From Candidatus Multivoradales bacterium (lineage in GTDB: Bacteria; Acidobacteriota; Thermoanaerobaculia; Multivoradales; JAHEKO01): 64,000 nt of DNA. The position numbers and the translations under genes are program-made. Each line of letters starts with the position of its first letter. Positions within the stretch are counted from its first letter, which is position 1. The stretch lies in assembly GCA_965248055.1 (NCBI GenBank), contig CBDFIJ010000004.1, forward strand, positions 2,304,001-2,368,000, written 5' to 3'. The notes below the pieces were generated by a model. The model had not been told where the DNA came from and searched no databases. It saw only the letters and a list, made by a program, of their open reading frames with translations. Below are positions 2,267 through 57,935 of the stretch, in pieces.

Positions 2267-2380
2267 TCCTCTGATGGGATAGACGGTTCAGCGACTTGAT
2301 GAGTTCCCGTAGCCAGAGAATCCGACCGGCTTGCAATGCGCTTCAGTTCATCAAGGTAAAATCTGCCAACGGACTGCGAT

Positions 2381-4312
2381 ATGGGCCAGCACGACGTAGA
2401 TCGCCACACCGACCCGGAACGTCTCAGGACGTTCACGCGCGAAGTATTGAAAGATCTCCGCGCTCTTCGACGCATGGAGCAAGAAGAGATGTTCGAGACC
2501 GGAGTTCGTCGAATCGGTGCTGAGCAGGAGATGTTTTTGGTTGACCCAAGGGGACATCCTGCACCGGTGGCGATGGAAGTGCTAGAGATCTCAGACGACC
2601 CCAACTTGACCACTGAGCTGGGCAAATTCAATCTGGAAATCAATCTTGAACCGGAGCTGTTTGTCGACCGGTGTTTGAATAACCTGGAGCAGCAGCTCAA
2701 TCAGCGGTTAGCGCGGGTGCGCGAGTCAGTTCACCAAGTTGGAGCCGAAGTCGCCCTGGTCGGTATCCTGCCGAGCCTGACCCCACGCCACTTGACCTTG
2801 GACTGGATGGCTCCGATTCCCCGCTACTACGCGCTCAACGAGGCTTTCCGGCGGCTGCGCAACGACCGACCGTTTCGATTTCGCATCACCGGGTGCGACG
2901 AGTTGATCGGCAAGCACGACAACGTGATGTTTGAGGCTTGCAACACCAGTTTTCAAATGCACCTGCAGGTCAGTCCCGCAGAATTTCCCAGGCTTTACAA
3001 CTTGGCCCAGTTAGTGGCTGGCCCGACATTGGCGGCAGCCACCAACTCCCCGCTGCTGTTCGGTCGGCAGCTATGGCGAGAAACCCGGATCGCGGTGTTT
3101 GAGCAATCGGTCGATACTCGGCATTCTAGCCACCTGCGGGAGCAAGCGGCCAGGGTGAGCTTTGGCCGCGACTGGATACGTTCCTCGGTTCGAGAGATTT
3201 ACCAAGAAGACATCGCCCGATTTCGCTCAATCTTGGCGATCGATGTGGCCGAGGACTCGCTAGAAATCCTAGAGCGTGGTGGAATCCCGAAACTCGAGGC
3301 GTTGTCTTTGTTCAACGGCACCGTCTATCGCTGGAATCGCCCCTGTTACGGGATTACCGAGGGCAAGCCCCATTTGCGCATTGAGAATCGGGTGCTGCCA
3401 TCTGGCCCGACCACTTTGGACGAAGTGGCCAACAGTGCATTTTGGCTGGGCGTGATGATCGAGTTGCCCGACCAGTTGGGAGAAATATCGGAAGAAATGG
3501 ACTTCCGCCATGTACGCGACAACTTTGTTGCTTGTGCACGGCGGGGATTGGGGGCGCAGATCGCGTGGCCAGGAATGGGAGAGATCTCGGTGGCGAACTT
3601 GATTCTGGAACACCTCCTGCCGGCAGCTCGTCGGGGCTTGCAACAGCGTCAAGTCGATGATGGAGATATAGACCGCTACCTCGCGGTCATCGAACAGAGA
3701 GTTCTCACTGGGCGCACCGGTTCCCAGTGGCAGATCGATGCTTTGGAGGCACTGGCACCGAAGGTTGACCGCGGGGCGGTTTTTGGTGCCCTGGTTCAAG
3801 GACTGGTCAATCGCCAGTGGCAGGGTGCCCCAGTGCATACCTGGCAATCGGTACAAATCGATGAAGGAGATGAATTGTCAACCCACGCGCAAGTTGAAGA
3901 CATCATGAGCACCGACCTGTTCACCATCAACGAGGAAGATGTAGTGGACGTCGCGGCGGCGATGATGAAATGGCGCCACATACGCCGAATTCCGGTCGAG
4001 GACGGGTCAGGGACCCTGGTGGGTTTGGTCACCTACCGAGGCCTGATACGTTTGCTAAGTCGAGGTGAGGCTGGCCGCATGAAACCGACTGCGGTTTCTT
4101 TGATTATGGAGACCGAAGTGGTTACGGTGACGCCCAACGTGCCGACATTGGACGCCGCCCGGTTGATGAGAAAACGCAAGATCGGTTGCTTACCGGTGGT
4201 CGACCAGGACAACCGTTTGGTTGGGATCGTCACCGAGAACGATCTGGTGCGAATCGCCTGGCCACTGCTTGAAGCACATCTCGCTTCGGCGTCAAGCGAC
4301 GACACGGTTTGA
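2381..4312 (+). CDS. glutamate-cysteine ligase family 2 protein with C-terminal CBS pair
   Basis: IGAEQE, TTELGKFNLE, EACNTSFQMHLQV, HLRIENRVLPSGPT motifs; two CBS domains at the C-terminus. Confidence 0.85.
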   Translation: MGQHDVDRHTDPERLRTFTREVLKDLRALRRMEQEEMFETGVRRIGAEQEMFLVDPRGHPAPVAMEVLEISDDPNLTTELGKFNLEINLEPELFVDRCLNNLEQQLNQRLARVRESVHQVGAEVALVGILPSLTPRHLTLDWMAPIPRYYALNEAFRRLRNDRPFRFRITGCDELIGKHDNVMFEACNTSFQMHLQVSPAEFPRLYNLAQLVAGPTLAAATNSPLLFGRQLWRETRIAVFEQSVDTRHSSHLREQAARVSFGRDWIRSSVREIYQEDIARFRSILAIDVAEDSLEILERGGIPKLEALSLFNGTVYRWNRPCYGITEGKPHLRIENRVLPSGPTTLDEVANSAFWLGVMIELPDQLGEISEEMDFRHVRDNFVACARRGLGAQIAWPGMGEISVANLILEHLLPAARRGLQQRQVDDGDIDRYLAVIEQRVLTGRTGSQWQIDALEALAPKVDRGAVFGALVQGLVNRQWQGAPVHTWQSVQIDEGDELSTHAQVEDIMSTDLFTINEEDVVDVAAAMMKWRHIRRIPVEDGSGTLVGLVTYRGLIRLLSRGEAGRMKPTAVSLIMETEVVTVTPNVPTLDAARLMRKRKIGCLPVVDQDNRLVGIVTENDLVRIAWPLLEAHLASASSDDTV

Positions 4313-4387
4313 TCTCTTGGCCTCAGTGTCGAGTCGACAACTGAGGCAGGAGTGCTCTCAACCAAAGACTCGCTACTATCTTCTACC

Positions 4388-5113
4388 ATGCGCACTGATC
4401 ACCTCCACACCAGCGAAGCAATCCGCCATCGACTGTCGGAGGGTCCCGAGGTCCACTACCTACGAGACTCCATCTACGGAGGTATCGATGGCGCGATTAC
4501 CACGTTTGCCATCGTGGCCGGTGCTGTGGGTGCCGAGCTATCTTCGGTCGTAGTGATCGTTCTTGGCGTCGCCAACCTATTAGCAGACGGGCTGTCGATG
4601 GCGGCAGGCAACTATTCTGCGACCCGAGCCGAAGTCGACGTTGAAGAACACCTGCGTGCGATCGAAAAACGCCACATTGAACTGCATCCAGAGGGAGAGC
4701 GCGAAGAGATTCGTCAAATCTTTGCCGCCAAAGGATTCTCTGGGGAACACCTGGAAAGTGTCGTCGAAGTGATCTCGGCCGACCACGGCCGTTGGATTCA
4801 AACCATGCTCACCGAAGAATACGGTCTGCCCCTGGAAGGCCGATCGCCGTGGCGGGCTGCATGGGCGACGTTCTCCGCGTTCTTGCTGTGCGGCGGCGTT
4901 CCCTTGATTCCCTATCTGCTCAAGGTGCCGCACGCGTTTGCTGCTGCATCGATCACCACTGCAGGAGTCTTCTTCGTCATCGGCTGCGCGCGAGCCCGCT
5001 GGTCCGTCGCCCCCTGGTGGAAGACCGGCCTCGGCACCCTCGGCATCGGAGGGTTAGCCGCCGCCGTGTCGTTCGCCGTTGGCCGTGGCTTGTCGATCTT
5101 GTTCGGCGTCTAA
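4388..5113 (+). CDS. VIT1/CCC1 family Fe/Mn transporter
   Basis: YLRDSIYGGIDG, GVANLLADGLSMAAGNY, HPEGEREEIRQIF and MLTEEYGL motifs. Start could be 4352. Confidence 0.9.
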   Translation: MRTDHLHTSEAIRHRLSEGPEVHYLRDSIYGGIDGAITTFAIVAGAVGAELSSVVVIVLGVANLLADGLSMAAGNYSATRAEVDVEEHLRAIEKRHIELHPEGEREEIRQIFAAKGFSGEHLESVVEVISADHGRWIQTMLTEEYGLPLEGRSPWRAAWATFSAFLLCGGVPLIPYLLKVPHAFAAASITTAGVFFVIGCARARWSVAPWWKTGLGTLGIGGLAAAVSFAVGRGLSILFGV

Positions 5114-5126
5114 CTACACGTTGTCC

Positions 5127-5184
5127 TTGAAAAGAATGGTGCACCGAGGAGAATTCGAATCCCCAACCTCCTGATCCGTAGTCA
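5127..5184. repeat. att site: 58-bp direct repeat of the tRNA-Arg 3' part plus 10 nt of downstream flank
   Basis: Identical to 45241-45298 (TTGAAAAGAATGGTGCACCGAGG...CGTAGTCA). Confidence 0.97.
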
Positions 5185-5324: not shown

Positions 5325-6554
5325 ATGAAACGCAAGCTCACCAAGCGCACAATTGACGCTCTGAAACCAAAGACTGGGGAGAACTTCGTCTGGGATACCG
5401 AAGTGACCGGTTTTGGGATCAAAGTGTTCCCTTCAGGCAGTAAGTCCTACGTCTTCCAGTACCGTGTCACGGTACGAGGCAAGAAGGGACCCGCACGCCG
5501 CATCACGCTCGCGCGAGTCGGTGAGGTGACGCTCGATCAGGCGCGAAGGACTGCAACAGATCATCTACAGGCGGCTCGTATGGGAGAAGATCCACGGGGT
5601 AGCCGAAAGGCGGTAGACAGTCCAACTGTCGCAGACTTGGTTAAGCGCTTTCTCGACAATTTCTTGCCGAACAAGAAACGCCCACCACGTCCCAAGACCA
5701 TGTCGTACTACGAGAGCTTGCTGCGATGTCATGTTGTGCCCGCGATAGGTGCCAAGCAAGTCGACGAGATCGAACGCGCTGACATCGAAGCGCTGCACAG
5801 CTCCATGCGCGACAAGCCGTATATGGGCAACCGCACCGTGACGGTCTTAGGGCAGGCCTTTGATTACGCGGAAGTCCTGGGTTGGCGGCAACAAGGCTCG
5901 AACCCGACTCGGCACATTGAGCGGTATCGTGAACTCAAGCGTGGCGCCAAGAAGGAAGTCATGCTTACACCAAAGCAAATGGGCGATCTCTTGAGGGCGA
6001 TTGACAAGGAAGAAGCGGATGGCGCAGACCCCACCTCCTGTGCTGCCATTCGCGTCGCCTTCTGGACCGGATGGCGGATCTCCGAAGTGCTCCGCCTTGA
6101 GTGGGAAAACGTCGACCTTGAGACGGGATCAACCAAGTTGCTTCTCACTAAAACCGCTGACGCGGAATACCGCCAGATGCCTACTCCTGCGATTGAGATT
6201 GTAAAGAATCAAAAGCAGCTCATTGGATGTCCCTACGTGTTCCCTGGCCGTTACAGTTACGGTCATCTCACCACGGTCAAAGGACCGTGGTTTCGGATTA
6301 GGAAACGAGCAGGACTAGACAATCTTGAAGGACTCGGTGGGTTGCGCCTCCACGACCTCAGGCATAACGTCGTGAGCTGGGATATCTCCCGAGGTGTTTC
6401 GTTGGAAATCGCCGGCAAGAACGTCGGTCACCGATCCCGTGATGCGACAGAAGTGTGCGCGCACTTTGCGCCGGATGCTTTGAAGCGAGCTGCTGATGCG
6501 CGGGCCGAAGCGATGCGGAAAGCAGTGGAGAGTGCCGATGCTCGCGCTACTTGA
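5325..6554 (+). CDS. tyrosine integrase (arm-binding domain + catalytic domain), catalytic Tyr apparently replaced by Cys
   Basis: WDTEVTGFGIKV arm-binding domain; TGWRISEV, LHDLRH and VGHRS motifs; TEVCAH where TxxYAH is expected. Confidence 0.9.
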   Translation: MKRKLTKRTIDALKPKTGENFVWDTEVTGFGIKVFPSGSKSYVFQYRVTVRGKKGPARRITLARVGEVTLDQARRTATDHLQAARMGEDPRGSRKAVDSPTVADLVKRFLDNFLPNKKRPPRPKTMSYYESLLRCHVVPAIGAKQVDEIERADIEALHSSMRDKPYMGNRTVTVLGQAFDYAEVLGWRQQGSNPTRHIERYRELKRGAKKEVMLTPKQMGDLLRAIDKEEADGADPTSCAAIRVAFWTGWRISEVLRLEWENVDLETGSTKLLLTKTADAEYRQMPTPAIEIVKNQKQLIGCPYVFPGRYSYGHLTTVKGPWFRIRKRAGLDNLEGLGGLRLHDLRHNVVSWDISRGVSLEIAGKNVGHRSRDATEVCAHFAPDALKRAADARAEAMRKAVESADARAT

Positions 6555-6579
6555 CTGGCATGACCGGCAAGTAAGGCAC

Positions 6580-6605
6580 AAAAAGGGCCACCAGAGTGGT
6601 GGCCC
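6580..6605 (-). terminator. intrinsic terminator
   Basis: GGGCCACCA-GAG-TGGTGGCCC hairpin with an A-run on its left (U-tail on the minus strand), between convergent genes. Confidence 0.7.
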
Positions 6606-6625
6606 GGAACTTAGGAGCTGACTAC

Positions 6626-6934
6626 TCAGCCTCGCTTAAGATAATACTGATCTTGAACGCTGCCTACGGGTTCGAGCGGATTGTACCTCGCCATCTTGGC
6701 GTCGAGCTTGCCCTCGATCTCTTGGATTGAGAAGGTCGCCGCCGATCGCACAAGCGAGCGGGTGTCCTTCTTGGCCTTTTGTAGCCTATTGAGTACTAAG
6801 CTTTGAAGCGCACCGTTCTTGGAGCGACCGATGTCGCCAAGCGTGCGAGCCGCAAAGAACCGCGTACCCGCGTGAGGTGAGTCCAACTCAGCCAGTACCT
6901 TTTCTATGCTCTCGCGATTACTCGTGCACATCAA
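6626..6934 (-). CDS. small HEAT-repeat-like protein
   Basis: TRFFAARTLGDIG and DTRSLVRSAATFSI helical repeats; AAGGAG RBS upstream of TTG. Confidence 0.6.
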   Translation of the reverse strand: MMCTSNRESIEKVLAELDSPHAGTRFFAARTLGDIGRSKNGALQSLVLNRLQKAKKDTRSLVRSAATFSIQEIEGKLDAKMARYNPLEPVGSVQDQYYLKRG

Positions 6935-7098
6935 ATTGTTCTCCTTGACCTTCTTTGGCCACGTCGGTTAGTAAACAAGCACCATCCGGTCAGTGTCAAC
7001 GTGGACACGTACCGGAACAAGTCTGCTATCCAGTGTGCCAACCGCAGGGGCGCCTGTCAAGTCCTTTATTCACAGTGGTTTGGATTGGGGCTAACTTA

Positions 7099-7156
7099 AT
7101 TTTAGTATAATTATTATTATTTTAGTATTGACATCAGGCTAATAGAATTCTAGAGT
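7099..7156 (+). promoter_or_regulatory. sigma70 promoter with AT-rich upstream element and direct-repeat operator
   Basis: TTGACA (7128-7133), 17-bp spacer, TAGAGT (7151-7156). ATTTTAGTAT occurs at 7099-7108 and 7119-7128. Confidence 0.7.
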
Positions 7157-7182
7157 CGGGGTTGGAAGGAGAAACGAGAAAC

Positions 7183-7569
7183 ATGAACGCAGAAACAGGT
7201 CGATCCCAAGGGCTAACTGTGGTGACTCCAGAGCAGCGCGAGACCGACAATGAACACGGCTTTGTCCGCGGCTGGGGTGTCTCAGCCAGTGCCTCGGGCA
7301 GTCACGACATCAGTATGGCATACGGCGAGCTGCCTCCCGGCATAAAGGCGGCAGCACATTGGCATCCTTTTGAAACGGCCATCTACATCGTTTCTGGGAA
7401 GGTGCGGGTCTACTACGGAGAAGATATGGCCGAGTACGTGGACGTTCGAGGTGGAGACTTCTTGACCATTCCCGCGGATGTCCCTCATGGCCCAGAGAAT
7501 CGGTCTGATACTCCAATGACCTACATCGTGGCCCGAGCTGCTGCGGCTGAGTCGGGGCACGAGATCTAA
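7183..7569 (+). CDS. cupin domain protein
   Basis: AHWHPFETAIY and IPADVPHGPEN cupin motifs; AAGGAG RBS. Confidence 0.88.
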   Translation: MNAETGRSQGLTVVTPEQRETDNEHGFVRGWGVSASASGSHDISMAYGELPPGIKAAAHWHPFETAIYIVSGKVRVYYGEDMAEYVDVRGGDFLTIPADVPHGPENRSDTPMTYIVARAAAAESGHEI

Positions 7570-7579
7570 CCGAACCTTC

Positions 7580-8749
7580 GTGTCTCTTGTGACTGCTCCC
7601 AACCCGTTAAGACTCGGCGCTCGCTCTGGGCTCACACTGATGTGTGCAGGGCCGGCTCAGGCTGAGAGGAGTGTTCTTGCTGAGCTTGGCTCGCCTGTTC
7701 TACCGCATTTCGGCCCATCATGGCTTCCCCTTTTCACTGAGACCACGGAACTACTGAAGCTCGTGTTCGGGACCGAACACGATGTGCTGCTCATCCCGGG
7801 CCCGGGCACCGCAGCACTCGAGTTGGTGCTGAATAGTCTGGTGCCGCGCGATCAAGCCGTTTGCGCGATCACGAACGGTTTTTTTGGCGGGAGGTTGGCA
7901 GAACAGACTCAAGGCCTAGGGCGACGGGTTCATCGGGTTGAGTTCCCAACCGGTGAGGCGGTAGATCCAGTCGTTTTCGCTAGTCGCCTGGGCGATATTG
8001 TCGAGCGAAGTCGGTCCGAGGGTATCCAACTGAGAGCGGTTACCTTGGTTCACCACGAGACAAGCACCGGCGTTCTTAATCCACTGCAGGAGATCGCATC
8101 TGTCGTTCGTTCGCATGATCTTCTTCTTATTGTCGACGCAGTCTCGTCTCTAGGGGGGGCAGAGTTTGCGATGGACGAGTGGAGTATCGATGCGTGCGTG
8201 TCTGTCCCCAATAAGTGCCTGGCGGCTCCCGCTGGAGTCGCTTTGGTAGCGCTAAGTCCTCGAGCTTGGGAGGCTGCGAGTGCAAACAGGACTGCGACAG
8301 GCTGGTACTGGAATTTGGAGACTTGGCGGTGGCACGGGCATCAACGGCCTGAGATGCCGTATCCGTCTACACAACCCACTAATGTGATCGTTGCTCTGCG
8401 TCGTGCCTTGCTGAACATGATGAACGAGGGTCCCGAGAACTATCGAACCCGGGTCAGGGAAGCGGCCCGTTCAATTCGGTCTAGATTATCTGCCTATGGT
8501 TTCCGCCTCTTTCCTCCAGCCGACGTAGCTGCCCCGATGCTGAGCGCTTTCAAGGTTCCGGCCGGTCTCACGGTACAGGAAATCACAACCTATCTGTTAC
8601 ATCGCCATCGGATAGTGGTCGCCGCCAACTTGGACGAAACAACGCCACCGCTCATTCGAGTTGGTCATATGGGGGCGTCTTTGGGGGACGACTATGTTGA
8701 GGCCCTTGCCGGAGCAGTTGAAGAACTCGTTGCTCCGAACTGCTCCTGA
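7580..8749 (+). CDS. PLP-dependent class V aminotransferase (alanine-glyoxylate/serine-pyruvate/AEP-transaminase-like)
   Basis: VHHETSTGVLNPL, VDAVSSLGG, PNKCL (PLP lysine) and IRVGHMG motifs. Confidence 0.9.
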   Translation: MSLVTAPNPLRLGARSGLTLMCAGPAQAERSVLAELGSPVLPHFGPSWLPLFTETTELLKLVFGTEHDVLLIPGPGTAALELVLNSLVPRDQAVCAITNGFFGGRLAEQTQGLGRRVHRVEFPTGEAVDPVVFASRLGDIVERSRSEGIQLRAVTLVHHETSTGVLNPLQEIASVVRSHDLLLIVDAVSSLGGAEFAMDEWSIDACVSVPNKCLAAPAGVALVALSPRAWEAASANRTATGWYWNLETWRWHGHQRPEMPYPSTQPTNVIVALRRALLNMMNEGPENYRTRVREAARSIRSRLSAYGFRLFPPADVAAPMLSAFKVPAGLTVQEITTYLLHRHRIVVAANLDETTPPLIRVGHMGASLGDDYVEALAGAVEELVAPNCS

Positions 8750-8751
8750 TT

Positions 8752-9705
8752 ATGGCAGCAGAGACGAGCGGCGAAGCGAGGGTCCGCCACCTAGCGCAAT
8801 ATTTTTACTCGCTTCGAATTCAGCGCGGCTATGAGACGGTCGCCGAATACTTACGATTCTATTCGCTGCCGATTAGCGAAGCCTATTATAGGGCTTTGGA
8901 GTCGGGGACGAAGACGGGGCGCGAGGTTGGCATCGAAACGGCTCTGCGCCTTTGCGACGCTTTGGATGCCGACGAAGAACAGTTTTTTCTTCATCTCTTG
9001 CGCGATCTCCTTCCCGTTGAACTCTTTGAGCGGCTTGTTCGACCAATCCCCCTTCGTTCGTTCAAATCCGTGGCCGAGCACCAGGCAGATCTCGAACATG
9101 ATGTGCAGATATATCGTCAGGCTATGGCACAAGCGCGAATGGCGGAGAGCTATTTCCCGTCTCTGGAGGCAGTGGACCATCTGGCTAAGAACACCTCACT
9201 GCTTTCCTATATTCACTTCATTTATCTCTCCGAGAGTTGTACTTTCTCGGAACTCAAAGCATTCCAGCAAGCTGCGAAGCTCGAAGACGATCTGGCCGAC
9301 GTGATTACGGTGTTCAAGGCACTTGACCTGATTGAATTGACCGAGGCTGAAGCGCCAAGCGGTCCAAGGGTTAGGAAAAAACGAGCACTCTTCAGGGTTC
9401 CGCATTCACCAAGCGGACAAACCCTGAAGGATCTTTTCCTAGCGCAAGAGATTCAGCGAAGCTTTACTTCCGAACGCGCCGCTTTGCCATTCCAAGCGGG
9501 CACGAACTCCTTTATTGAGTCGTTTGTCGCGGCCTACAGTGCAAATGCCCACGAGGGACTTCGCCGGCGAGTGCTCGACGTGTTGGCTGAGCTTGCTGCG
9601 CACTCAGAGGACGCGGAGCCGTCTAATGCGGAGCCCTACTTCGTGGCCCTGGTGTTTTCCCCTCGTCCGGAGTATGTTAAAGCTACTAGCAATTTAGGAG
9701 AGTAA
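8752..9705 (+). CDS. putative transcriptional regulator (N-terminal XRE-like HTH)
   Basis: LRIQRGY...ISEAYYRALESG...IETALRLCDAL HTH pattern, followed by a wHTH-like middle region and a C-terminal domain. Confidence 0.6.
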   Translation: MAAETSGEARVRHLAQYFYSLRIQRGYETVAEYLRFYSLPISEAYYRALESGTKTGREVGIETALRLCDALDADEEQFFLHLLRDLLPVELFERLVRPIPLRSFKSVAEHQADLEHDVQIYRQAMAQARMAESYFPSLEAVDHLAKNTSLLSYIHFIYLSESCTFSELKAFQQAAKLEDDLADVITVFKALDLIELTEAEAPSGPRVRKKRALFRVPHSPSGQTLKDLFLAQEIQRSFTSERAALPFQAGTNSFIESFVAAYSANAHEGLRRRVLDVLAELAAHSEDAEPSNAEPYFVALVFSPRPEYVKATSNLGE

Positions 9706-9713
9706 AAGGTTCT

Positions 9714-10427
9714 ATGACGACGGAATTGAAATACTACAGCGACCCATACTGCCAGGAGGTAGATACAATAGTCACCGCGATTGAAGACAAGGGGGGGCGT
9801 GCTGAGGTTGTGGTCGAGACAACTATTTTCTACCCCGAAGGCGGGGGGCAGCCAAGCGACAAGGGCGAGATCAAGGGACCGAACGGCACCCTCCGTGTGG
9901 ACAATGTTCGAGCCCAAGTAGGGGAAGTCACGCACGCTGGCGTGCTCGCTGGAAGGGTTGAAGTTGGCGATCCGGTACACCTCCACCTGAAGTGGAACTA
10001 CCGACTACGCAATATGCGAGTTCACGCTGCTGGTCACTTACTTCATGATGTACTCATGAGCTTGCAGGGAGGTCTCGAACCGCGCAAAGGTGCTCATGGC
10101 AAAAAAGCCTACCTTGAATACGCTGGCGAGATGACTACAGAGATTAAAGAGCAACTAGAAACGGCGATCGATGAGGCCATCAAGGCAGATCTGCCGATAT
10201 CGATGAGGGAGAGTTCCTACGAAGAGATCGTGGAGCAGTGTCGGTTCGTGCCGGATGGGCTTCCGCGAAACAAGCCACTCCGAGTACTCCAGATTGGCGA
10301 GTACGATCCCATGCCCGATGGAGGCGTGCATGTTGCGACAACGGGGGAGATCGGTGCGATAGTGATTCAGGACGTTCGTGTCGAGAATGGCGGGACATTC
10401 ATTCGCTACCGTGTCACAGGAGGGTAA
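9714..10427 (+). CDS. AlaX-type trans-editing aminoacyl-tRNA deacylase (Asp variant)
   Basis: TIFYPEGGGQPSDKG, MRVHAAGHLLH (HxxxH), and PDGGVHV in place of CGGTHV. Confidence 0.88.
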   Translation: MTTELKYYSDPYCQEVDTIVTAIEDKGGRAEVVVETTIFYPEGGGQPSDKGEIKGPNGTLRVDNVRAQVGEVTHAGVLAGRVEVGDPVHLHLKWNYRLRNMRVHAAGHLLHDVLMSLQGGLEPRKGAHGKKAYLEYAGEMTTEIKEQLETAIDEAIKADLPISMRESSYEEIVEQCRFVPDGLPRNKPLRVLQIGEYDPMPDGGVHVATTGEIGAIVIQDVRVENGGTFIRYRVTGG

Positions 10428-10513
10428 GCTGCCATGATCTTTTCTACCTCACAAGGCTCTACCTTCTCAATCCCCTAGCTGCCTTCCTTGGTTAGGTTGC
10501 TCAGTCTCGGACG

Positions 10514-12337
10514 ATGCTGAATGTGAGAGGTCCTCCAATGACTATGATTCCAAATGTCTCAGTTCTGAATAGGAAAAAGGTACTTGTGCTCGGTGGCTAC
10601 GGGATGGTGGGGAGAGCTATCTGCCGGCTTCTGTTGGATCGCGGGCCAGCGGAAATCATCGTGCACTCACAATGGGAGCAAGATGCACTCGCGACCGCAG
10701 AATACCTGCGCAAGATTAGGGACGAACAGACCGGCAGTGCTGGAGCTACTCCTAAGGTGATTCCCTGCCACGGAGATGTCTTTGTCCGAGAGAGCTTCAA
10801 AGATCGCCCTCAATCAGAACTTCTGGCAGATGCAGAAACGCGAGCCGGCTTAATCGAAGATCTACTTGAAGACGTTACTCGCCAGAACGCAGACCGCGGG
10901 GCACTCTGGCGTTTGTTTGAAAAACACCGGCCGAATATCGTTATCGACTGCATCAATACGGCTACTGTCCTGGCCTATGGCAACGTTCACAAGGAAATGC
11001 AGTCTGTCTACAACGCGGTGTCAGACTCGACCATTCTGAGAGAAGAGCTGAAAGAACGCCTGGAGCTTCTTCTCTACAGTCTTCCCGTACCTAGGTTGGT
11101 TAAGCATATGCAGGAGCTGAACCAAGCAGTTCGTGATTTCAAGACAGAGATCTACGTAAAAATCGGCACCACCGGCACCGGAGGAATGGGGATCAATATC
11201 CCCTACACGCATGGAGAAGTGAAGCCTTCCAAGCAATTGATGGGCAAGACAGCGATGGCGGGAGCACACTCGCTGCTGCTGTATCTTCTGTATGCGTCAC
11301 CGGACCCCCCTATCACGCGGGAGATCAAGCCCAGCGCAGCGATAGCGTGGAAGGACATTCAGTTCGGCCAAGTTCGACAGGGCAGAAGGGTGATCGAGTT
11401 AGTTGATTGCCCATGCCCACTAGGCTGTGAGCGCGGCGACCACCTCGAGCGCGTACTCGACGGAGAGGAGGTCGAAACGGTGGTTGATGATGAGGGAGAG
11501 CCCGAGACTCTGCAGGCCGTCTATATAGATACGGGGGAGAACGGCATGTTCTCGCTCGAGGAGTTCCAGGCTATTACCACGCAGCGCCAGATGGAGTTCA
11601 TAACGCCGGAAGAAATTGCAGCAACGGTTGTGGATGAGATCTCAGGTCGCAGCACGGGGCATGACGTCCTGAGTGCGATCCGAACGTCGTCCATGGGACC
11701 CTCGTATCGGGCTGGTTTTCTTCGAGACGTAGCTATTCGGAGAGCGAGAGACCTAGTTCGTAAACACGCAAAGGACGGCGTGGCCTTCGAGTTTCTTGGG
11801 CCGCCGAAGCTCTCGAAATGGCTCTTTGAAGCATACCTGCTGAAGAAAGCGTTCTCGACGTTAGGCAATGTCGTCAAGTCGGAGCCAAAAACGCTCGTAG
11901 AGCGGTGCCTTGACCTAATTGAGAATGATCGAGACTTGAGAGCTCATATTCTCTCGATCGGGCTTCCGATTCTCCTTCCTGACGGCAAGCGCTACCTCCG
12001 AGGGAGGTCCATTTGTCACCCTGATTTTGGAGTCGAGGCTCGGTTGCCCATCGAGCAAGAAGAGCAAGTGGGTCAGTGGGCCGTCGAGGGATGGGTGGAC
12101 CTCCGAGAGGTGAACCTGTCCTGGTGGCGATCGCAGCTTCTTGAGCTGGTCAGAGAGATCGAGTCGATTCCAGAGACGGATCAGCATGCAGCTACCTCTT
12201 TTCATACCAGGACCAACGTCTTCTGGGGTGCGACCGAGGACAAGAGCAAGCTCCACGAACTAGAGTTGGACATAGGAGAGATCGTAGGCTGGCTCTTTGT
12301 TCGACTCGAAGGTGCGCGGCCAGGGCATGAGGACTGA
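10514..12337 (+). CDS. large NAD(P)-binding Rossmann-fold oxidoreductase of unknown function
   Basis: KVLVLGGYGMVG dinucleotide-binding motif; KIGTTGTGGMG, IDTGENG and LGPPKLSK blocks. Start could be 10538. Confidence 0.65.
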   Translation: MLNVRGPPMTMIPNVSVLNRKKVLVLGGYGMVGRAICRLLLDRGPAEIIVHSQWEQDALATAEYLRKIRDEQTGSAGATPKVIPCHGDVFVRESFKDRPQSELLADAETRAGLIEDLLEDVTRQNADRGALWRLFEKHRPNIVIDCINTATVLAYGNVHKEMQSVYNAVSDSTILREELKERLELLLYSLPVPRLVKHMQELNQAVRDFKTEIYVKIGTTGTGGMGINIPYTHGEVKPSKQLMGKTAMAGAHSLLLYLLYASPDPPITREIKPSAAIAWKDIQFGQVRQGRRVIELVDCPCPLGCERGDHLERVLDGEEVETVVDDEGEPETLQAVYIDTGENGMFSLEEFQAITTQRQMEFITPEEIAATVVDEISGRSTGHDVLSAIRTSSMGPSYRAGFLRDVAIRRARDLVRKHAKDGVAFEFLGPPKLSKWLFEAYLLKKAFSTLGNVVKSEPKTLVERCLDLIENDRDLRAHILSIGLPILLPDGKRYLRGRSICHPDFGVEARLPIEQEEQVGQWAVEGWVDLREVNLSWWRSQLLELVREIESIPETDQHAATSFHTRTNVFWGATEDKSKLHELELDIGEIVGWLFVRLEGARPGHED

Positions 12338-12465
12338 GACACGACTGAATTCATCTAGACCGCCAGCGATGGGCGTGGAGAGAACGGGGATCGTCCAATC
12401 ACGGATTCAACGGCGAGAGAGATTGCTCCATGGCGCGTGCCGAAGACCGAAGAGGACCGAGGAAA

Positions 12466-13149
12466 ATGCCGACTGAGAGGCTCTTCTACGCTAGCCAGGC
12501 CATAGCCGGTGAAGCCGTAGTCACAGGTGTTGAAAGCGGAGGTGAGAATGCGAAGGTCTGGCTGAATGCGACCATATTCCATCCGCTCGGCGGCGGTCAG
12601 AGAGCGGATGAAGGACGGATTGGCGATGCTCAAGTCCTCCATGTCTGGGACGACGGAGACGACATCGTGCACGTTGTTGACTGTGTTCGTGATCTGAAGA
12701 TCGGAGATCGAGTACAGCTAGAGGTTGAGGAGGATGCGAGAAGGCTCCACGAGCGCCTTCACTCAGCCGGTCATCTACTGGCGGCGGTGACCAAGGATTT
12801 GATTCCTCATGCCAACACCGTCTGCAAGCACCATTGGCCGAAGGAGGCGTACATGGTGTTCGCCGTCGGCGAGTCCGTTCCCCAAGATAGCCTTAAGAGA
12901 AGACTGGAAGAGGCTCTTCTTGAGCAGATCGAGCAGGCACTGCCAATTCATGCGACTGGCGATGAGTCCACGACACGGGCGATTACGATTACCGGCTACT
13001 CCGCTGTTCTGTGTCGTGGGACACACGTTCAGGCGACCGATGCGCTGGTTCGCGTGAGCGTCCGTTCCATTGACCAGGGGAGCGGAGTGCTGTGCGTTGG
13101 ATACGACGTTCCGCTCGTGACTCCCTCGCGAGAACCCTGGTATGCGTAG
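12466..13149 (+). CDS. second AlaX-type trans-editing deacylase
   Basis: TIFHPLGGGQRADEG, RLHSAGHLL (HxxxH) and CRGTHV (CxxxH). Confidence 0.85.
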   Translation: MPTERLFYASQAIAGEAVVTGVESGGENAKVWLNATIFHPLGGGQRADEGRIGDAQVLHVWDDGDDIVHVVDCVRDLKIGDRVQLEVEEDARRLHERLHSAGHLLAAVTKDLIPHANTVCKHHWPKEAYMVFAVGESVPQDSLKRRLEEALLEQIEQALPIHATGDESTTRAITITGYSAVLCRGTHVQATDALVRVSVRSIDQGSGVLCVGYDVPLVTPSREPWYA

Positions 13150-13182
13150 CACCAGGTTCCGCAAGCCAGCACACGAGGCAAG

Positions 13183-14217
13183 ATGCACGATCTAGAAGAC
13201 ATACACGTCTCGGGGCTTGAGAGAGTGGCCGCGGCTGACTCCCCAGAGTCACTACAAGAAGTGCGATCGGCGCTGATCGGACCGAAGGGCGAGATCGCTG
13301 GTCTGTTTAAAGAGCTGTCTTCAGTGCCCGCTTCCGATCGCAAGTCTCTTGGACGATTACTCAACGAGACCAAGAAGAAATGGGAGGCTGCGATCGCGGA
13401 GCGGCGAGAGTCGATACTTGATGCAGCCTCGGTGATTTCCGAAGGCTTTGACGTCACTCAACCCGGACGACGCCCAGCAACGGGCGGGCTGCACCCGATT
13501 ATTCAGATCATCTACGACTTGAACGATGCTTTTCGTTCGCTTAACTTCGAGCTTTACGAAGGCCCGGAAATCTCGAGTGAGCTCTTCGCGTTCGACGTGC
13601 TTAACTTCCCACCCGATCACCCAGCACGTGAGAGCATGGACACCTATTGGCTTGACGGAGACTCGGATAAGCGCGGCGCAGAGCGGCTCTGTCTGCGACC
13701 ACACTTGACTGGCGGAAGTGTGCGCTATATGCGCACCCACACACCACCCTTTCGCTTTGTCTATCCGGGTCGCGTCTACCGAAATGAGTCGACCGATGCG
13801 AGCCACGAGCGTGCCTTCTTCCAGTATGAAGCTTTGATTGTTGATAGACGGGTTCCATTTTCGGCAGGCCAGGTCATGGTTAACGCGGTTCTTGAAACTG
13901 TCTTTGGCCGAGCAGTTAAGACACGACTGCGTACGGGGTTCTTTCCGTTTGTTGAGCCGGGCTTCGAAATCGATATGCAGTGCCTCGGTTGCGAAGGCTC
14001 CGGCTGCAGTATTTGCAAGCGTGTTGGTTGGTTAGAAGTCATGCCAGGTGGACCGCCACATCCCAATGTTCTCCGAAAGGGAGGCCTCGATCCCAGCAAG
14101 TGGGAAGGCTTCTACGTCAACGTCGGGCTCGATCGACTAGCGATGATGCGATACGGCATCAATGATGTGCGGCTTTTCCACAGTGCCGATTTACGTTTCC
14201 TCTCGCAGTTCAAATAG
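13183..14217 (+). CDS. pheS: phenylalanine-tRNA ligase alpha subunit paralog with remodelled amino-acid pocket
   Basis: GGLHP, HPARES, PGRVYRNE, FFPFVEPG, CxxCxxxGCxxC Zn ribbon, GLDRLAMMRYGI, DLRFLSQF. Pocket motifs are divergent. Confidence 0.9.
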   Translation: MHDLEDIHVSGLERVAAADSPESLQEVRSALIGPKGEIAGLFKELSSVPASDRKSLGRLLNETKKKWEAAIAERRESILDAASVISEGFDVTQPGRRPATGGLHPIIQIIYDLNDAFRSLNFELYEGPEISSELFAFDVLNFPPDHPARESMDTYWLDGDSDKRGAERLCLRPHLTGGSVRYMRTHTPPFRFVYPGRVYRNESTDASHERAFFQYEALIVDRRVPFSAGQVMVNAVLETVFGRAVKTRLRTGFFPFVEPGFEIDMQCLGCEGSGCSICKRVGWLEVMPGGPPHPNVLRKGGLDPSKWEGFYVNVGLDRLAMMRYGINDVRLFHSADLRFLSQFK

Positions 14218-14226
14218 GGCTGAACT

Positions 14227-16653
14227 TTGAGACTCTCTCTTGATTGGGTCGCGGATTATGTAGAGTTGCCTCCGGAACTGAGTGCGGAGGACATCGCGTA
14301 CGCTCTTACGATGGCGACAGTGGAAGTCGAGCAGATCGTCCGACTCGCCAAGCCGCTTGAGCACGTCCGTGTTGCACGGGTGGAGAGCGTCGAACGCCAT
14401 CCAAAAGCGGATCGGCTGTCTGTGGTGCGCTGCAGCATCGGAGACGGCAAAACCGTTGAAGTGGTCTGCGGCGGCACGAACTTGACGCGGCAACAGCTCG
14501 TCGCTCTCGCATTGCCTGGTGCGACAGTGCGCTCTCGCAGCGGCCACGACCAAGTCGCTGTGGTTGAGCGTGAGATCCACGGCGTGGTGAGCTCGGGGAT
14601 GGTGTGTGCCGCTTCCGAACTCGATCTTGAACAACTGTTCACGCCGGGCAGCGAGACCAACGTTATGGACCTTTCTGAACTCGACGTGCGGCCCGGTCAA
14701 GGTCTGGCCGCAGTGATCGGCTTTGACGACGTGGTCCTCGAGATCGACAATAGATCCCTCACTAACCGGCCCGACCTACTCGGACACCGCGGTCTGGCGC
14801 GCGAACTCGCAGCGATCTACGCGCGGCCTCTTGAGTCACTACCGAGGTTTCGGCCTCCCGGGATCGCAGGTGATCTCGCGGTCGACATCGAGGATCCAAG
14901 CCAATGCCGTCGCTACACCGCGACCTGGATCGAAGGTGTGACGGCTACGCCGTCGCCATTCTGGCTACGGAGCCGGCTTGTGCGGGCTGGTCAGCGCCCT
15001 ATCAATCTACCAGTCGATTTGACGAATTACGTCATGCTCGCGCTCGGCCAGCCGAGCCATGCTTTCGATACCGAGCAACTCCGCGGCGCGATCCAGGTTC
15101 GTCGAGCCCGGTACGGCGAGACGTTGGGGCTATTAGATGGTGGAGCGGTGGGGCTTGATGAAAACAGCTTGGTCATCGCTGACGAACGACGTCCAGTTGC
15201 ACTCGCTGGGGTGATGGGCGGTGTCGGCTCCTCAATTTCGAACAAGACGTTGCACATGGTTCTCGAAATAGCAAACTTCGAACCAAGTGGCATTCGGCGA
15301 ACAGCTTCCCGTATGAGCGTGCGTACTGAGAGTTCACGTCGCTTCGACAAAGGCCTCGACCCTAAGCTGGTAGAAGATGCGCTTGCTCTTTTTTTCGATG
15401 TCCTTTCACGAGCGCTACCGGACGCAAGGGCTACCGGATTTGTAGATAACTATCCGGCTCCGTTCGATCCTGTTTTAGTCGAGACGACGGTTGGTTTCAT
15501 TAATCGTCGTTTGGGAGCGTCGCATTCGCAGAGCGAGATTTGTGAAGTGCTTGGACGGCTGGGATTCGACGTGTCCGCAGAGGGTAGCAATCTAGCTGTT
15601 AACGTTCCGTCATGGAGGGCGACCGGAGACGTCTCGTTGCCGGAGGACCTTGTAGAAGAAGTTGGTCGGCTGTTCGGCTACGAGAACCTCGACTTCCAAC
15701 CTCCACAAGTCTATCTAGAGCGCGCAATCCGGCAACCAAAGCTGAGCCTTGATCGTCGCGTCCGAGAGTATCTTGCTGGCCCAGCGGCCATGCAGGAGAT
15801 CGCTAGCTATCCGTGGGTGGAGGATCGTTACCTAGATGCGGTTGGGGCAACGCCACCCCTCCGATTGGTTACCCCTCCAGCACCTACTGCTCATCGGCTG
15901 CAGTCGTCCTTAATTCCGCAGATGTTGTCTGCAGTTGTCTCGAATCTTCGCTTTCTACGGGAGTTTCGACTATTCGAGATGGCGCGGGTTTTTCCTACTC
16001 GGTCCATCGAGCGGCTTGACGAGCACGGAGAGAGACTGCCATATCAGCCCAAGTACGTTGCAGCTGCGCTAGTCGGCAACGACCCCGCCAGACTTTTCCT
16101 GGAAGCGAAAGGCGTCCTCGAGAGTCTTGGTAGGGAGGTGCAAATGGAGCCGCTCAGCCTGTCTACCGATTCTTGCAGTGCATCGTGGGCGGAGCTGACC
16201 GCTCAGATGACTATCAGCTTCGGCGAGCAAGTCATCGGGTGTATGGGTTTGGTCTCAGCGAGGACGATGCGTCTCTCAGGAATCAGGCGCGCACGGGCTG
16301 CGCTGTTTGAGTTTGGACTGGACCTCCTTCGACCGCATCCCTCCCGAGAAAACATCTTCGAACCGATTCCAACTTATCCCCAGAAGGAGTACGATCTCTC
16401 GCTACTCATCCCAGTACACGTCAAATGGACTGATCTTCATCGAACGATGACGGAGGCTCATGAGCTAGTACGGAGCGTTCGTCTAGTTGAGGAGTACGTC
16501 GGCGACCAGGTCCCAGCAGGCAAGAGGTCACTCCTCGTACGCGTAACGATGGGTGCTGCGACCCGCACCCTCGAAGCCAAAGACGTCGATATGGCTGCCT
16601 CTGCTATACTAAAGCGTGCGAATGAAGAATTTGGTGCGGAGCTTCGCAGCTAG
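14227..16653 (+). CDS. pheT: phenylalanine-tRNA ligase beta subunit paralog
   Basis: MRLSLDWV, HPKADRL, NRPDLLGHRGLARE, LAGVMGG, SSRRFDKG, EDLVEEVGRLFGY; C-terminal anticodon-binding domain ending ELRS. Confidence 0.92.
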   Translation: MRLSLDWVADYVELPPELSAEDIAYALTMATVEVEQIVRLAKPLEHVRVARVESVERHPKADRLSVVRCSIGDGKTVEVVCGGTNLTRQQLVALALPGATVRSRSGHDQVAVVEREIHGVVSSGMVCAASELDLEQLFTPGSETNVMDLSELDVRPGQGLAAVIGFDDVVLEIDNRSLTNRPDLLGHRGLARELAAIYARPLESLPRFRPPGIAGDLAVDIEDPSQCRRYTATWIEGVTATPSPFWLRSRLVRAGQRPINLPVDLTNYVMLALGQPSHAFDTEQLRGAIQVRRARYGETLGLLDGGAVGLDENSLVIADERRPVALAGVMGGVGSSISNKTLHMVLEIANFEPSGIRRTASRMSVRTESSRRFDKGLDPKLVEDALALFFDVLSRALPDARATGFVDNYPAPFDPVLVETTVGFINRRLGASHSQSEICEVLGRLGFDVSAEGSNLAVNVPSWRATGDVSLPEDLVEEVGRLFGYENLDFQPPQVYLERAIRQPKLSLDRRVREYLAGPAAMQEIASYPWVEDRYLDAVGATPPLRLVTPPAPTAHRLQSSLIPQMLSAVVSNLRFLREFRLFEMARVFPTRSIERLDEHGERLPYQPKYVAAALVGNDPARLFLEAKGVLESLGREVQMEPLSLSTDSCSASWAELTAQMTISFGEQVIGCMGLVSARTMRLSGIRRARAALFEFGLDLLRPHPSRENIFEPIPTYPQKEYDLSLLIPVHVKWTDLHRTMTEAHELVRSVRLVEEYVGDQVPAGKRSLLVRVTMGAATRTLEAKDVDMAASAILKRANEEFGAELRS

Positions 16654-16753
16654 CGCTTCGAGTTTGCTCAGTGGTGGCGGCTATGCTCCAATGCGATGGA
16701 TTGCCTAGGGAATTGAATGCAACTCCACATTTGGCGTAAGGGAGGAACCGGAG

Positions 16754-40837: not shown

Positions 40838-41051
40838 TTTCCCAATCCTCCAAACACGAAACGTTGGCCCTCGGTTGGCCCCGCAGTAGCCCACAGGAAA
40901 ACTAACCGATCTCGATTCGCGACCCACCTAGGTTAGTCGAACGACGGGCTGAAGGACAAGTGACAGTCACACTTGCCCGATTTGCACGCTCGCTATCGGG
41001 TAATCGCAAAGTATGATGCCCTCGTTCAGTTGTTAAAGAAGGAGGTTTTTC

Positions 41052-45240: not shown

Positions 45241-45298
45241 TTGAAAAGAATGGTGCACCGAGGAGAATTCGAATCCCCAACCTCCTGATCCGTAGTCA
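45241..45298. repeat. att site overlapping the intact tRNA-Arg
   Basis: Identical to 5127-5184. Confidence 0.97.
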
Positions 45299-45327
45299 GG
45301 TGCTCTATCCAATTGAGCTATCGGTGC
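45251..45327 (-). tRNA. tRNA-Arg(ACG)
   Basis: GCACCGA/TCGGTGC acceptor stem, TAGCTCAATTGGATAGAGC D-arm, CCTGA-CT-ACG-GA-TCAGG anticodon arm, TTCGAAT T-loop, encoded CCA. Confidence 0.97.
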
Positions 45328-57766: not shown

Positions 57767-57935
57767 GGGTTGGTGGATGTTACTACCGGAGTGTCTTCCC
57801 GGAGGGTGTTCGGCAGCGGGGCAGCTTCAGTTTGTCGTATTGAGGAAAGCCCCTGGCCCCCAAGCCTCCCCGCAGGGATGACGGTTTTTGGAAGGCCATT
57901 CTGAGGGCATGGAGTGTCGGCATTCCAGCGGTGAT

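What the first reader, a model, noticed from the sequence alone, without database searches (positions are those of the whole stretch)
13183..14217. PheS paralog with intact ATP motifs but a rebuilt substrate pocket
Compared with canonical bacterial PheS motifs recalled from E. coli and T. thermophilus: GFAFG becomes GFYVN (TAC at 14113, AAC at 14119), LGCGMVHP becomes MPGGPPHP, and RT(H/Q)TSxVQ becomes RPHLTGGS. The Ala in GFAFG (E. coli A294) is the established size gate for the phenyl ring, and the nearby Gly residues form the pocket floor. Tyr and Asn there should exclude Phe and make the pocket smaller and more polar. Motif 2 (VYRNE, FFQYE), FPF and motif 3 (GLDR) are kept, which argues for changed specificity rather than decay.
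Basis: partly seen in the sequence, partly recalled or inferred. Interest (0 to 1): 0.9.

Follow-up and report, generated by a model that had tools for sequence, protein, structure and literature searches.

The report
Second, divergent-type phenylalanyl-tRNA synthetase on island
This gene pair is a complete second phenylalanyl-tRNA synthetase of an unusual but widespread bacterial subtype with a rebuilt amino-acid pocket, carried here on a mobile genomic island; it most likely still charges phenylalanine rather than a new amino acid.

Summary
The gene is a second copy. The genome also holds a canonical rplT-pheS-pheT operon, 36% identical.

The substitutions are not private to this copy. They define a large, tightly conserved PheS clade, found in at least 582 species genomes, mainly Bacillota, Synergistota and Acidobacteriota. 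In 18 of 20 clade-bearing genomes tested, this type is the only PheS. In some it directly follows rplT. Its beta partner keeps the Tyr-specific editing residues. So it must work as a true Phe-tRNA(Phe) synthetase, and changed amino-acid specificity is unlikely.

None of 40 relatives of the host has this type. In the window it lies inside a roughly 40 kb element bounded by an exact 58-bp repeat of the tRNA-Arg 3' end, next to a tyrosine integrase. It is therefore a horizontally acquired xenolog.

Still open: how Tyr and Asn at the E. coli A294 and G296 positions accommodate Phe, and whether the type differs in analogue or inhibitor sensitivity. No solved structure has this pocket, and my searches found no paper describing it.

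The parts
13183..14217 (+). pheS' : alpha subunit (344 aa) of a GFY[VI]N-type PheRS
   Evidence: PF01409 240.5 bits, PF02912 56.3 bits. TIGR00468 222.6 bits, below its cut-off of 237.45.
14227..16653 (+). pheT' : beta subunit (808 aa, TTG start), full domain set
   Evidence: TIGR00472 562.4 bits (cut-off 402.65). tRNA_bind, B3_4, B5, tRNA_synthFbeta and FDX-ACB all above cut-off.
13696..13719 (+). RPHLTGGS (residues 172-179), in place of canonical R-T-H/Q-T-S-x-x-Q
   Evidence: RPHLTGxS in 163 of 163 clade sequences.
13942..13953 (+). FPFV (residues 254-257): the aromatic pair that recognises the Phe ring is kept; V257 = E. coli T251 = T. thermophilus V261
   Evidence: Role of these residues from PMC3275996.
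14041..14064 (+). MPGGPPHP (residues 287-294), in place of canonical (L/M)G(C/A/S)GMVHP
   Evidence: MPGGxxHP in 163 of 163.
14107..14121 (+). GFYVN (residues 309-313): Y311 = E. coli A294, N313 = E. coli G296
15022..15267 (+). PheT' editing-site residues T266, N267, H278, G328, E347 (= T. thermophilus beta T249, N250, H261, G315, E334)
   Evidence: Mapped by the alignment to 1b70_B. In 124 clade PheT sequences: N, H, G and E in 124 of 124; T in 117 with Ser in 7. Roles from PMC3275996.
5127..5184 (+). 58-bp exact direct repeat (att), a copy of the 3' part of tRNA-Arg plus 10 nt
   Evidence: Only two copies in the window.
45241..45298 (+). Second copy of the 58-bp repeat, overlapping the 3' end of the tRNA-Arg gene
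45251..45327 (-). tRNA-Arg (ACG), the integration site
5325..6554 (+). Tyrosine integrase (Arm-DNA-bind_3 + Phage_integrase)
7580..8749 (+). Class-V aminotransferase; first gene of the co-directional cluster that ends with pheS'T'
   Evidence: All NCBIfam hits are far below their cut-offs.
9714..10427 (+). AlaX-like trans-editing paralog 1 (237 aa)
   Evidence: AlaXM model 133 bits, cut-off 300.
10514..12337 (+). SDR-like protein of the PF27054 family (607 aa)
12430..13149 (+). AlaX-like trans-editing paralog 2 (239 aa); ends 33 nt before pheS'
16754..18418 (+). Unknown 554-aa protein downstream of pheT'
   Evidence: no family match.

Best explanation
Window 13183-16653 encodes both subunits of a complete, functional second phenylalanyl-tRNA synthetase, presumably (alpha-beta)2. 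It belongs to a distinct, strongly conserved bacterial subtype, here called the GFY[VI]N type. In this subtype the amino-acid pocket is rebuilt at about eight otherwise near-invariant positions: E. coli A294 to Tyr, G296 to Asn, HTSxxQ to HLTGxS, GxGMVHP to PGGxPHP, and QxEG to QYEA. The class II catalytic motifs, the FPF aromatic pair and the Tyr-directed editing site of the beta subunit are kept. The subtype is the housekeeping PheRS of many Bacillota, Synergistota and Acidobacteriota, so it activates Phe and charges tRNA(Phe). That step is inferred from sole-copy status, not assayed. In this genome it is a xenolog. It arrived on a roughly 40 kb element integrated into tRNA-Arg(ACG) and coexists with the native rplT-pheS-pheT operon. 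Why it is retained is not shown. The options are an advantage from different analogue or inhibitor sensitivity, or a neutral passenger caught part-way through replacement of the native enzyme.
For: 1. Family: PF01409, PF02912 and a full PheT.
2. Clade size and range: the best 120 of 7969 homologs are 62-100% identical, and all 120 carry Tyr at the A294 column. The 80 best genome loci are 49 Bacillota, 12 Synergistota, 10 Acidobacteriota and 9 others.
3. Pocket motifs are fixed in 163 locus-derived sequences: Y 163, N 161, RPHLTGxS 163, MPGGxxHP 163, FPFVEPG(F/Y)E 163.
4. Sole PheS: 18 of 20 genomes carrying the type have no other PF01409 match, including one 4.9 Mb assembly whose record title reads 'chromosome: 1'. 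The same search hits all 14 control genomes, archaea included.
5. Housekeeping context: rplT lies on the same strand within 4 kb upstream in 29 of 142 loci with enough upstream sequence, and within 900 nt in 13. pheT lies directly downstream in 156 of 165 loci.
6. Editing residues equivalent to T. thermophilus beta T249, N250, H261, G315 and E334 are kept in the window copy and in 117-124 of 124 clade partners.
7. The clade is monophyletic (SH-aLRT 99, stem length 0.56) and mixes phyla.
8. Intactness: the window copy differs from the clade consensus at 1 of 125 (PheS) and 3 of 93 (PheT) near-invariant columns.
9. Horizontal origin: 37 of 40 relatives have one PheS each, at 34-42% identity, and none has this type. 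The other 3 had no match and are 61-75% complete. There is an exact 58-bp att repeat at 5127 and 45241 on tRNA-Arg, with an integrase at 5325. The same-genus genome G006 matches the flanks but not pheS'T'.
10. Precedent: human cytosolic PheRS recognises Phe with a shifted aromatic triad (PMC3275996, section 3 read).
Against: 1. No enzymology exists for any member; Phe specificity is inferred.
2. The changed positions are the ones shown to gate the pocket. A294G relaxes para-position specificity, and the floor is described as 'invariant glycines' (PMC3275996). Tyr and Asn there would be expected to clash with Phe in the canonical geometry.
3. P0001 scores below NCBI's equivalog cut-off for PheS (222.6 against 237.45).
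4. Most sole-copy genomes are MAGs whose completeness the tool did not report, so a missed second PheS cannot be excluded genome by genome.
5. The context in this window is not housekeeping. pheS'T' ends a tight co-directional cluster with a class-V aminotransferase, two AlaX-like genes and a PF27054 SDR. None of these is seen beside the other clade loci, except for weak 28-29% AlaX hits in one locus and a 27% aminotransferase hit in another. A specialised role for this copy therefore stays open.
6. The window copy is only 59-69% identical to the loci I could read. Its closest relatives (77-83%) could not be placed in context.
Confidence: 0.8

Rival explanations
1. Target-replacement (resistance) copy. 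The island-borne GFY[VI]N-type PheRS is still Phe-specific. It is retained because its rebuilt pocket is insensitive to something that poisons the native PheRS: a natural PheRS inhibitor, or a toxic Phe analogue such as m-Tyr. The compound might even be made by the neighbouring cluster (PLP enzyme, SDR, AlaX-like genes). This would parallel horizontally transferred resistant IleRS, TrpRS and ThrRS copies; that parallel is recalled, not checked here.
For: The copy was acquired on a mobile island while the native operon is kept. The changes concentrate at the substrate pocket rather than the ATP site. The clade has a cross-phylum distribution with short internal branches. Dual-copy genomes exist (G048, and G046 which is unpublished). 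The gene sits in a tight co-directional cluster with enzymes of unknown role.
Against: No inhibitor, biosynthetic core enzyme or transporter was identified in the cluster. The neighbours are not conserved with the clade elsewhere. No clade member was found in the plasmid collection; the best identity there was 42.6%. The second dual-copy locus I read (L008) shows no mobile or biosynthetic genes. In most lineages the type is simply the housekeeping enzyme.
Confidence: 0.2
2. This is a neofunctionalised PheS/PheT pair that activates a smaller or more polar amino acid, or a non-proteinogenic one, for a tRNA-dependent side pathway. The neighbouring AlaX-like deacylases and the PLP enzyme might belong to that pathway.
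For: Tyr and Asn sit at the A294 and G296 positions, and the HTS..Q motif is altered. The TIGR00468 score is below its cut-off. The operon neighbours are unusual: two AlaX-like genes found nowhere else in the genome apart from AlaRS itself, and a class-V aminotransferase with a weak resemblance to SepCysS (E about 1e-4).
Against: The same pocket is found in the only PheS of 18 of 20 genomes and in rplT-pheST operons. The window copy is a normal clade member at 124 of 125 conserved columns. The beta subunit keeps the Tyr-specific editing residues and the FDX-ACB anticodon-binding domain. There is no extra tRNA in the island; the only tRNA in the window is the tRNA-Arg at its edge. The SrmL 'PheS-related mystery ligase' model scores 94.8 against a cut-off of 300.
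Confidence: 0.07
3. An inert passenger. The second operon is unexpressed or decaying cargo of the island with no function in this host.
For: The host already has a native PheRS. Other island cargo shows damage, namely a UvrD-like gene split into 19075-20175 and 20200-20994. Promoter-like and terminator-like sites around the cluster are not above chance.
Against: Both ORFs are full length with no stops. They match the clade consensus at 124 of 125 and 90 of 93 near-invariant columns. All catalytic and editing motifs are intact.
Confidence: 0.05

Closest known systems
Canonical bacterial PheRS (E. coli 3pco; T. thermophilus 1b70; P. aeruginosa 4p71, the best PDB match at E 4.6e-82)
   Same: The alpha and beta gene pair, all domains, class II motifs 1-3, the FPF aromatic pair, the Cys4 insertion also present in P. 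aeruginosa and S. haemolyticus, and the beta editing-site residues.
   Different: Identity is about 33-42%. Tyr replaces A294, Asn replaces G296, HLTGxS replaces HTSxxQ, PGGxPHP replaces GxGMVHP, QYEA replaces QxEG, and there is an extra DTYWLxG...RGAER insertion before the HLTG motif. None of the five solved bacterial alpha chains whose alignments were printed has this pocket.
Human and archaeal cytosolic PheRS, as described in PMC3275996
   Same: They show that Phe specificity can survive a rebuilt pocket. In the human enzyme the aromatic recognition triad is shifted: Asn410 and Tyr412 replace Phe258 and Phe260, and Phe438 replaces Val286.
   Different: It is a different lineage. The window protein is of bacterial type and keeps FPF. 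NCBIfam NF003210 (PRK04172, 'phenylalanine--tRNA ligase subunit alpha'), which I take from recall to be the archaeal/eukaryotic-type model, scores 131.9 against a cut-off of 350.
Horizontally transferred second aaRS copies that confer inhibitor resistance
   Same: A second, divergent synthetase for the same amino acid, carried on a mobile element alongside the native gene.
   Different: No inhibitor is known or implied here, and resistance has not been tested. In most lineages this type is the only, housekeeping enzyme.
SrmL, 'PheS-related mystery ligase' (NCBIfam NF051887)
   Same: A PheS-derived class II core.
   Different: P0001 scores 94.8 bits against a cut-off of 300 over part of the model, and it has a full PheT partner. 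It is not a member.

Membership tests
Bacterial PheRS alpha subunit (PheS) | Class II core domain tRNA-synt_2d plus the N-terminal coiled-coil domain | tested here: met
   PF01409 240.5 bits (cut-off 19.8) and PF02912 56.3 bits (cut-off 22.3).
Bacterial PheRS alpha subunit (PheS) | Score above the curated equivalog cut-off of TIGR00468 | tested here: not met
   222.6 bits against a cut-off of 237.45. It is still the best-scoring model by far.
Bacterial PheRS alpha subunit (PheS) | Adjacent full-length beta subunit with B3/4 editing, B5 and FDX-ACB anticodon-binding domains | tested here: met
   TIGR00472 562.4 bits (cut-off 402.65) and five Pfam domains. pheT is directly downstream in 156 of 165 clade loci.
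Bacterial PheRS alpha subunit (PheS) | Aromatic pair that stacks on the Phe ring (T. thermophilus F258 and F260, the FPF motif) | tested here: met
   F254-P255-F256 in the window copy; FPFVEPG(F/Y)E in 163 of 163 clade sequences. Role from PMC3275996.
Bacterial PheRS alpha subunit (PheS) | Small residues at the back and floor of the pocket (E. coli A294 and G296, the GFAFG motif) | tested here: not met
   Y311 and N313. Among 130 full-length representatives, Ala occurs in 129 and Gly in 127.
Bacterial PheRS alpha subunit (PheS) | The R-T-H/Q-T-S-x-x-Q motif after motif 1 | tested here: not met
   The window copy has RPHLTGGS. Canonical representatives have T in 123, S in 122 and Q in 120 of 130.
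Bacterial PheRS alpha subunit (PheS) | Acts as the cell's PheRS (essential, sole copy) in organisms that carry it | tested here: met
   For the clade, it is the only PF01409 match in 18 of 20 genomes. For this genome it is not the sole copy.
Bacterial PheRS alpha subunit (PheS) | Activates Phe and aminoacylates tRNA(Phe) | not testable with these tools
   Needs ATP-PPi exchange, aminoacylation or complementation assays.
Bacterial PheRS beta subunit editing site | Residues equivalent to T. thermophilus beta T249, N250, H261, G315 and E334 | tested here: met
   T266, N267, H278, G328 and E347, by alignment to 1b70_B. Conserved in 117-124 of 124 clade PheT sequences. The E323 equivalent is Ser here, and it is Gly in E. 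coli in the same alignment set.
tRNA-gene-integrated genomic island | Direct repeat of the tRNA 3' end at both borders, with an adjacent integrase | tested here: met
   An exact 58-bp repeat at 5127-5184 and 45241-45298 overlaps tRNA-Arg at 45251-45327. The tyrosine integrase is at 5325-6554.
tRNA-gene-integrated genomic island | Cargo absent from close relatives while the flanks are conserved | tested here: met
   G006 (same genus) matches window 2380-5083 and 56942-59590 at 70-79% identity but has no pheS'T'. It carries other DNA and at least 3 att copies at that site.
SrmL PheS-related ligase (NF051887) | Score above the model cut-off | tested here: not met
   94.8 bits against 300.

The most novel reading that the evidence does not exclude
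The GFY[VI]N-type enzyme is a mobile 'PheRS2'. On this reading, its rebuilt pocket (Tyr and Asn closing the para and floor side, with a re-made HLTG loop) changes discrimination against Tyr, m-Tyr, para-substituted analogues or natural PheRS-directed toxins. That property would have driven repeated cross-phylum replacement of the canonical enzyme. This window would then catch the vehicle in the act: a tRNA-Arg integrative island delivering pheS'T' into a genome that still keeps its native operon.
Probability: 0.2. Interest if true: 0.75.

Novelty: new variant of a known kind. Interest (0 to 1): 0.45.

Why it matters
PheRS pocket residues A294 and T251 are the textbook handles for engineering non-canonical amino-acid incorporation and pheS* counter-selection, and the pocket is an antibacterial drug target. 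A large natural clade of housekeeping PheRS breaks the 'invariant' Ala/Gly rule. It includes abundant gut Clostridia, Synergistota and soil Acidobacteriota.

This has three consequences. First, Phe can be recognised by a second bacterial pocket architecture that has no solved structure. Second, A294G-style engineering and pocket-directed inhibitors may behave differently in these organisms. Third, sequence rules that read 'pocket changed, so specificity changed' can mislead.

The island-borne copy also gives a concrete example of how an essential synthetase type can move between phyla.

Tried and rejected
Neighbourhood conservation. tblastn of 13 window proteins against 87 and then 174 fetched loci found no conserved neighbours other than pheT. 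The exceptions were weak AlaX-like hits (28-29%) in L157 and a 27% aminotransferase hit in L040. A conserved 'AlaX-PheRS module' is therefore rejected.

Defence-system reading of the cluster. PADLOC gave nothing for the AlaX-like genes, the SDR, unk317 or unk554. The aminotransferase had only weak SspA/DndA-like hits.

Plasmid and phage carriage. No clade member was found on plasmids; the best identity was 42.6%. One 13.7 kb 'Bacteriophage sp.' record at 59.5% identity is probably a bacterial contig.

Context of another dual-copy genome. L008 shows an MFS transporter, an amine oxidase, an acyltransferase, DUF1456 and a PhoD-like gene. None is mobile or biosynthetic.

Promoter and terminator scan of 6500-19200. 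Counts were not above the shuffled controls.

Expression. No RNA holder was listed, and read laying was not used.

Closest relatives. The 77-83% identical proteins could not be placed in context.

Structure. I did not run structure prediction or complex prediction. They return no coordinates and offer no Phe ligand, so they cannot show whether Tyr311 occludes the pocket.

dN/dS. Not computed, because the readable relatives are 69% identical or less in protein and synonymous sites would be saturated.

Literature. Five searches found no paper describing this PheS type. Only search listings were seen for those hits. I read passages and section 3 of PMC3275996.

The mapping of T. thermophilus Val286 onto the PGGxPHP loop could not be fixed from the alignments printed, so I make no claim about it.
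Full report
**What is there.**
The ORF at 13183-14217 (+) encodes a 344-aa protein (P0001). It has the class II PheS core (PF01409, 240.5 bits) and the PheS N-terminal domain (PF02912, 56.3 bits). Ten bases downstream, 14227-16653 encodes an 808-aa PheT with all five beta-subunit domains; TIGR00472 scores 562.4 bits against a cut-off of 402.65.

The protein reads WEGFYVNVGLDR, with TAC at 14113 and AAC at 14119. It also contains MPGGPPHP, RPHLTGGS, VYRNE, FFQYE and FPF. HMMER alignments to solved structures fix the numbering: Y311 = E. coli A294, N313 = G296, V257 = T251. The five solved bacterial alpha chains whose alignments were printed all read GFAFG, (H/Q)TSxxQ and GxGMVHP.

Among the best 150 representatives of 50%-identity clusters (9971 hits at E<=0.001), 130 are at least 320 aa long. 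Of these, 129 have Ala at the A294 column and 127 have Gly at the G296 column.

**It is a second copy, acquired horizontally.**
The genome (G000; 3.4 Mb, 97.7% complete) has another PheS and PheT at C4:2763173-2766126. They directly follow rplT and carry the canonical GFAFG, LGSGMVDP and RTHTSPVQ. Identity to the window pair is 36-37% (alpha) and 30% (beta).

I searched 40 relatives from the same genus, family and order. Of these, 37 have exactly one match, at 34-42% identity, which is the canonical type. The other three have no match and are 61-75% complete. None has the window's type (G007 in that set is unpublished).

The window copy lies inside an element bounded by an exact 58-bp direct repeat at 5127-5184 and 45241-45298. 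The second copy overlaps the 3' end of tRNA-Arg(ACG) at 45251-45327 (-). A tyrosine integrase sits at 5325-6554.

The same-genus genome G006 matches the flanks (window 2380-5083 and 56942-59590, 70-79% identity) but lacks pheS'T'. It carries at least three copies of the att repeat.

Other island cargo includes:
- a serine recombinase;
- two coupling-protein-like ATPases;
- a PDC-S06 defence-candidate ATPase (E 1e-205);
- an Rhs/YD-repeat protein;
- a split UvrD/GajB-like helicase.

**The pocket substitutions define a large housekeeping clade.**
A word-indexed search gave 7969 homologs. The best 120 are 62-100% identical, and all 120 have Tyr at the A294 column.

The best 80 genome loci are 49 Bacillota (Oscillospiraceae, Lachnospiraceae, Clostridiaceae), 12 Synergistota, 10 Acidobacteriota, and single or double cases from Planctomycetota, Pseudomonadota, Myxococcota, Bdellovibrionota and Actinomycetota.

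In 163 PheS sequences read from the loci (5 are re-fetches of the same places), the counts were:
- Tyr: 163 of 163;
- Asn: 161 of 163, with Asp in the other 2;
- RPHLTGxS: 163 of 163;
- MPGGxxHP: 163 of 163;
- FPFVEPG(F/Y)E: 163 of 163.

A quick IQ-TREE of 81 rows recovers the clade with SH-aLRT 99, on a long stem (0.56) with short internal branches and mixed phyla. Its sister is a single representative (P0127) that reads GVAIN and RPQITQTV.

Twenty-three positions are clade-diagnostic. They include T->L175, S->T176, Q->S179, G->A217, V->P292, A->Y311 and G->N313.

**Why it must still be a PheRS.**
I searched PF01409 across the whole genomes behind 20 clade loci. In 18 of them the clade gene is the only match. 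These include one 4.9 Mb assembly whose record title reads 'chromosome: 1'. Two genomes have a canonical copy as well (G048, and the unpublished G046). The same search finds PheS in all 14 control genomes, archaea included.

In Acidobacteriota and Synergistaceae loci the gene follows rplT. This holds within 4 kb in 29 of 142 loci with at least 1 kb of upstream sequence, and within 900 nt in 13. pheT follows directly in 156 of 165 loci.

[quoted passage not shown] By alignment to 1b70_B they are T266, N267, H278, G328 and E347. Asn, His, Gly and Glu are invariant in 124 of 124 clade PheT sequences, and Thr occurs in 117 with Ser in 7. An editing site built for Tyr makes sense only if the synthetic site handles aromatic substrates.

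The window copy is an ordinary clade member. It departs from the clade consensus at 1 of 125 near-invariant PheS columns and 3 of 93 PheT columns. The only tRNA in the window is the tRNA-Arg at the island's edge.

The same review notes that human cytosolic PheRS recognises Phe through a shifted aromatic triad, so a rebuilt pocket with retained specificity has precedent.

**What argues the other way.**
- No member has been assayed.
- A294 and the glycine floor are the experimentally established gates of the pocket, so the canonical geometry cannot hold here.
- P0001 falls below the TIGR00468 cut-off.
- Most sole-copy genomes are MAGs of unstated completeness.
- The local context in this window is peculiar. 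A tight co-directional run precedes pheS', with gaps of 2-92 nt. It comprises a class-V aminotransferase (7580), an unknown 317-aa protein (8752), an AlaX-like gene (9714), a PF27054 SDR (10514) and a second AlaX-like gene (12430).
- The two AlaX-like genes are the only ones in the genome besides AlaRS itself.
- None of these neighbours accompanies the clade in the other loci. I therefore read them as island-specific cargo, but a specialised role for this copy cannot be excluded.

**Verdict.**
The interpretation of changed amino-acid specificity is not supported.

The best explanation (confidence 0.8) is a functional xenologous PheRS of a distinct, structurally uncharacterised subtype, delivered by a tRNA-Arg integrative island.

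A resistance or target-replacement role for the extra copy is possible (0.2) but untested. Neofunctionalisation (0.07) and inert cargo (0.05) are unlikely.

In novelty terms it is a new variant of a known kind. Source records name the protein 'phenylalanyl-tRNA synthetase alpha chain' or 'phenylalanine--tRNA ligase subunit alpha'. I found no paper and no solved structure that describes its pocket.

The search of earlier findings and the listing of cluster members were closed, so no earlier notes or cluster names were used.

Noticed in passing
window 9714-10427 and 12430-13149: Two AlaX-like (AlaRS editing-domain) genes flank a PF27054 SDR just upstream of pheS'. The first has HAAGH but no Cys in the second zinc motif. 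The second has HSAGH and CRGTH. They are the only AlaX-like genes in the genome besides AlaRS itself.
   Followed up: partly
window 10514-12337; G000:C4:1624079-1625698: The island's 607-aa SDR-like protein belongs to the PF27054 (Beta_methylindole_red_C) family, which is widespread in Calditrichota, Ignavibacteria and Gemmatimonadota. The genome also has a native paralog (43% identity) that contains one in-frame TAG. The island therefore carries second copies of at least three host gene families.
   Followed up: partly
protein P0127 (representative library): The sister of the GFY[VI]N clade is a 343-aa PheS-like protein that reads GVAIN, FPGGPIHP and RPQITQTV, with no His in the HTS motif. 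It sits on a long branch (1.67). It could be a truly neofunctionalised relative.
   Followed up: no
G006:C2:1316574, 1349804, 1387661 (same-genus genome): At least three copies of the tRNA-Arg att repeat, 94-95% identical to the window's, lie over about 70 kb. This suggests tandem islands at the same integration site in the sister species.
   Followed up: no
window 26739-29423 (-), 35615-40927 (-), 19075-20994 (+): Other island cargo: a PDC-S06 candidate defence ATPase (E 1e-205), a 1770-aa Rhs/YD-repeat protein, and a UvrD/GajB-like helicase split into two ORFs.
   Followed up: partly
phage collection record MT836033.1 (hit H16): A 13.7 kb record labelled 'Bacteriophage sp.', from human faecal samples, encodes a clade-type PheS at 59.5% identity. 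It is probably a bacterial contig filed as phage.
   Followed up: no
representative library: The 50%-identity representative library lists only fragments of this clade (179-285 aa) and one aberrant 333-aa form. No full-length representative appears, so clade size cannot be read from that library.
   Followed up: no
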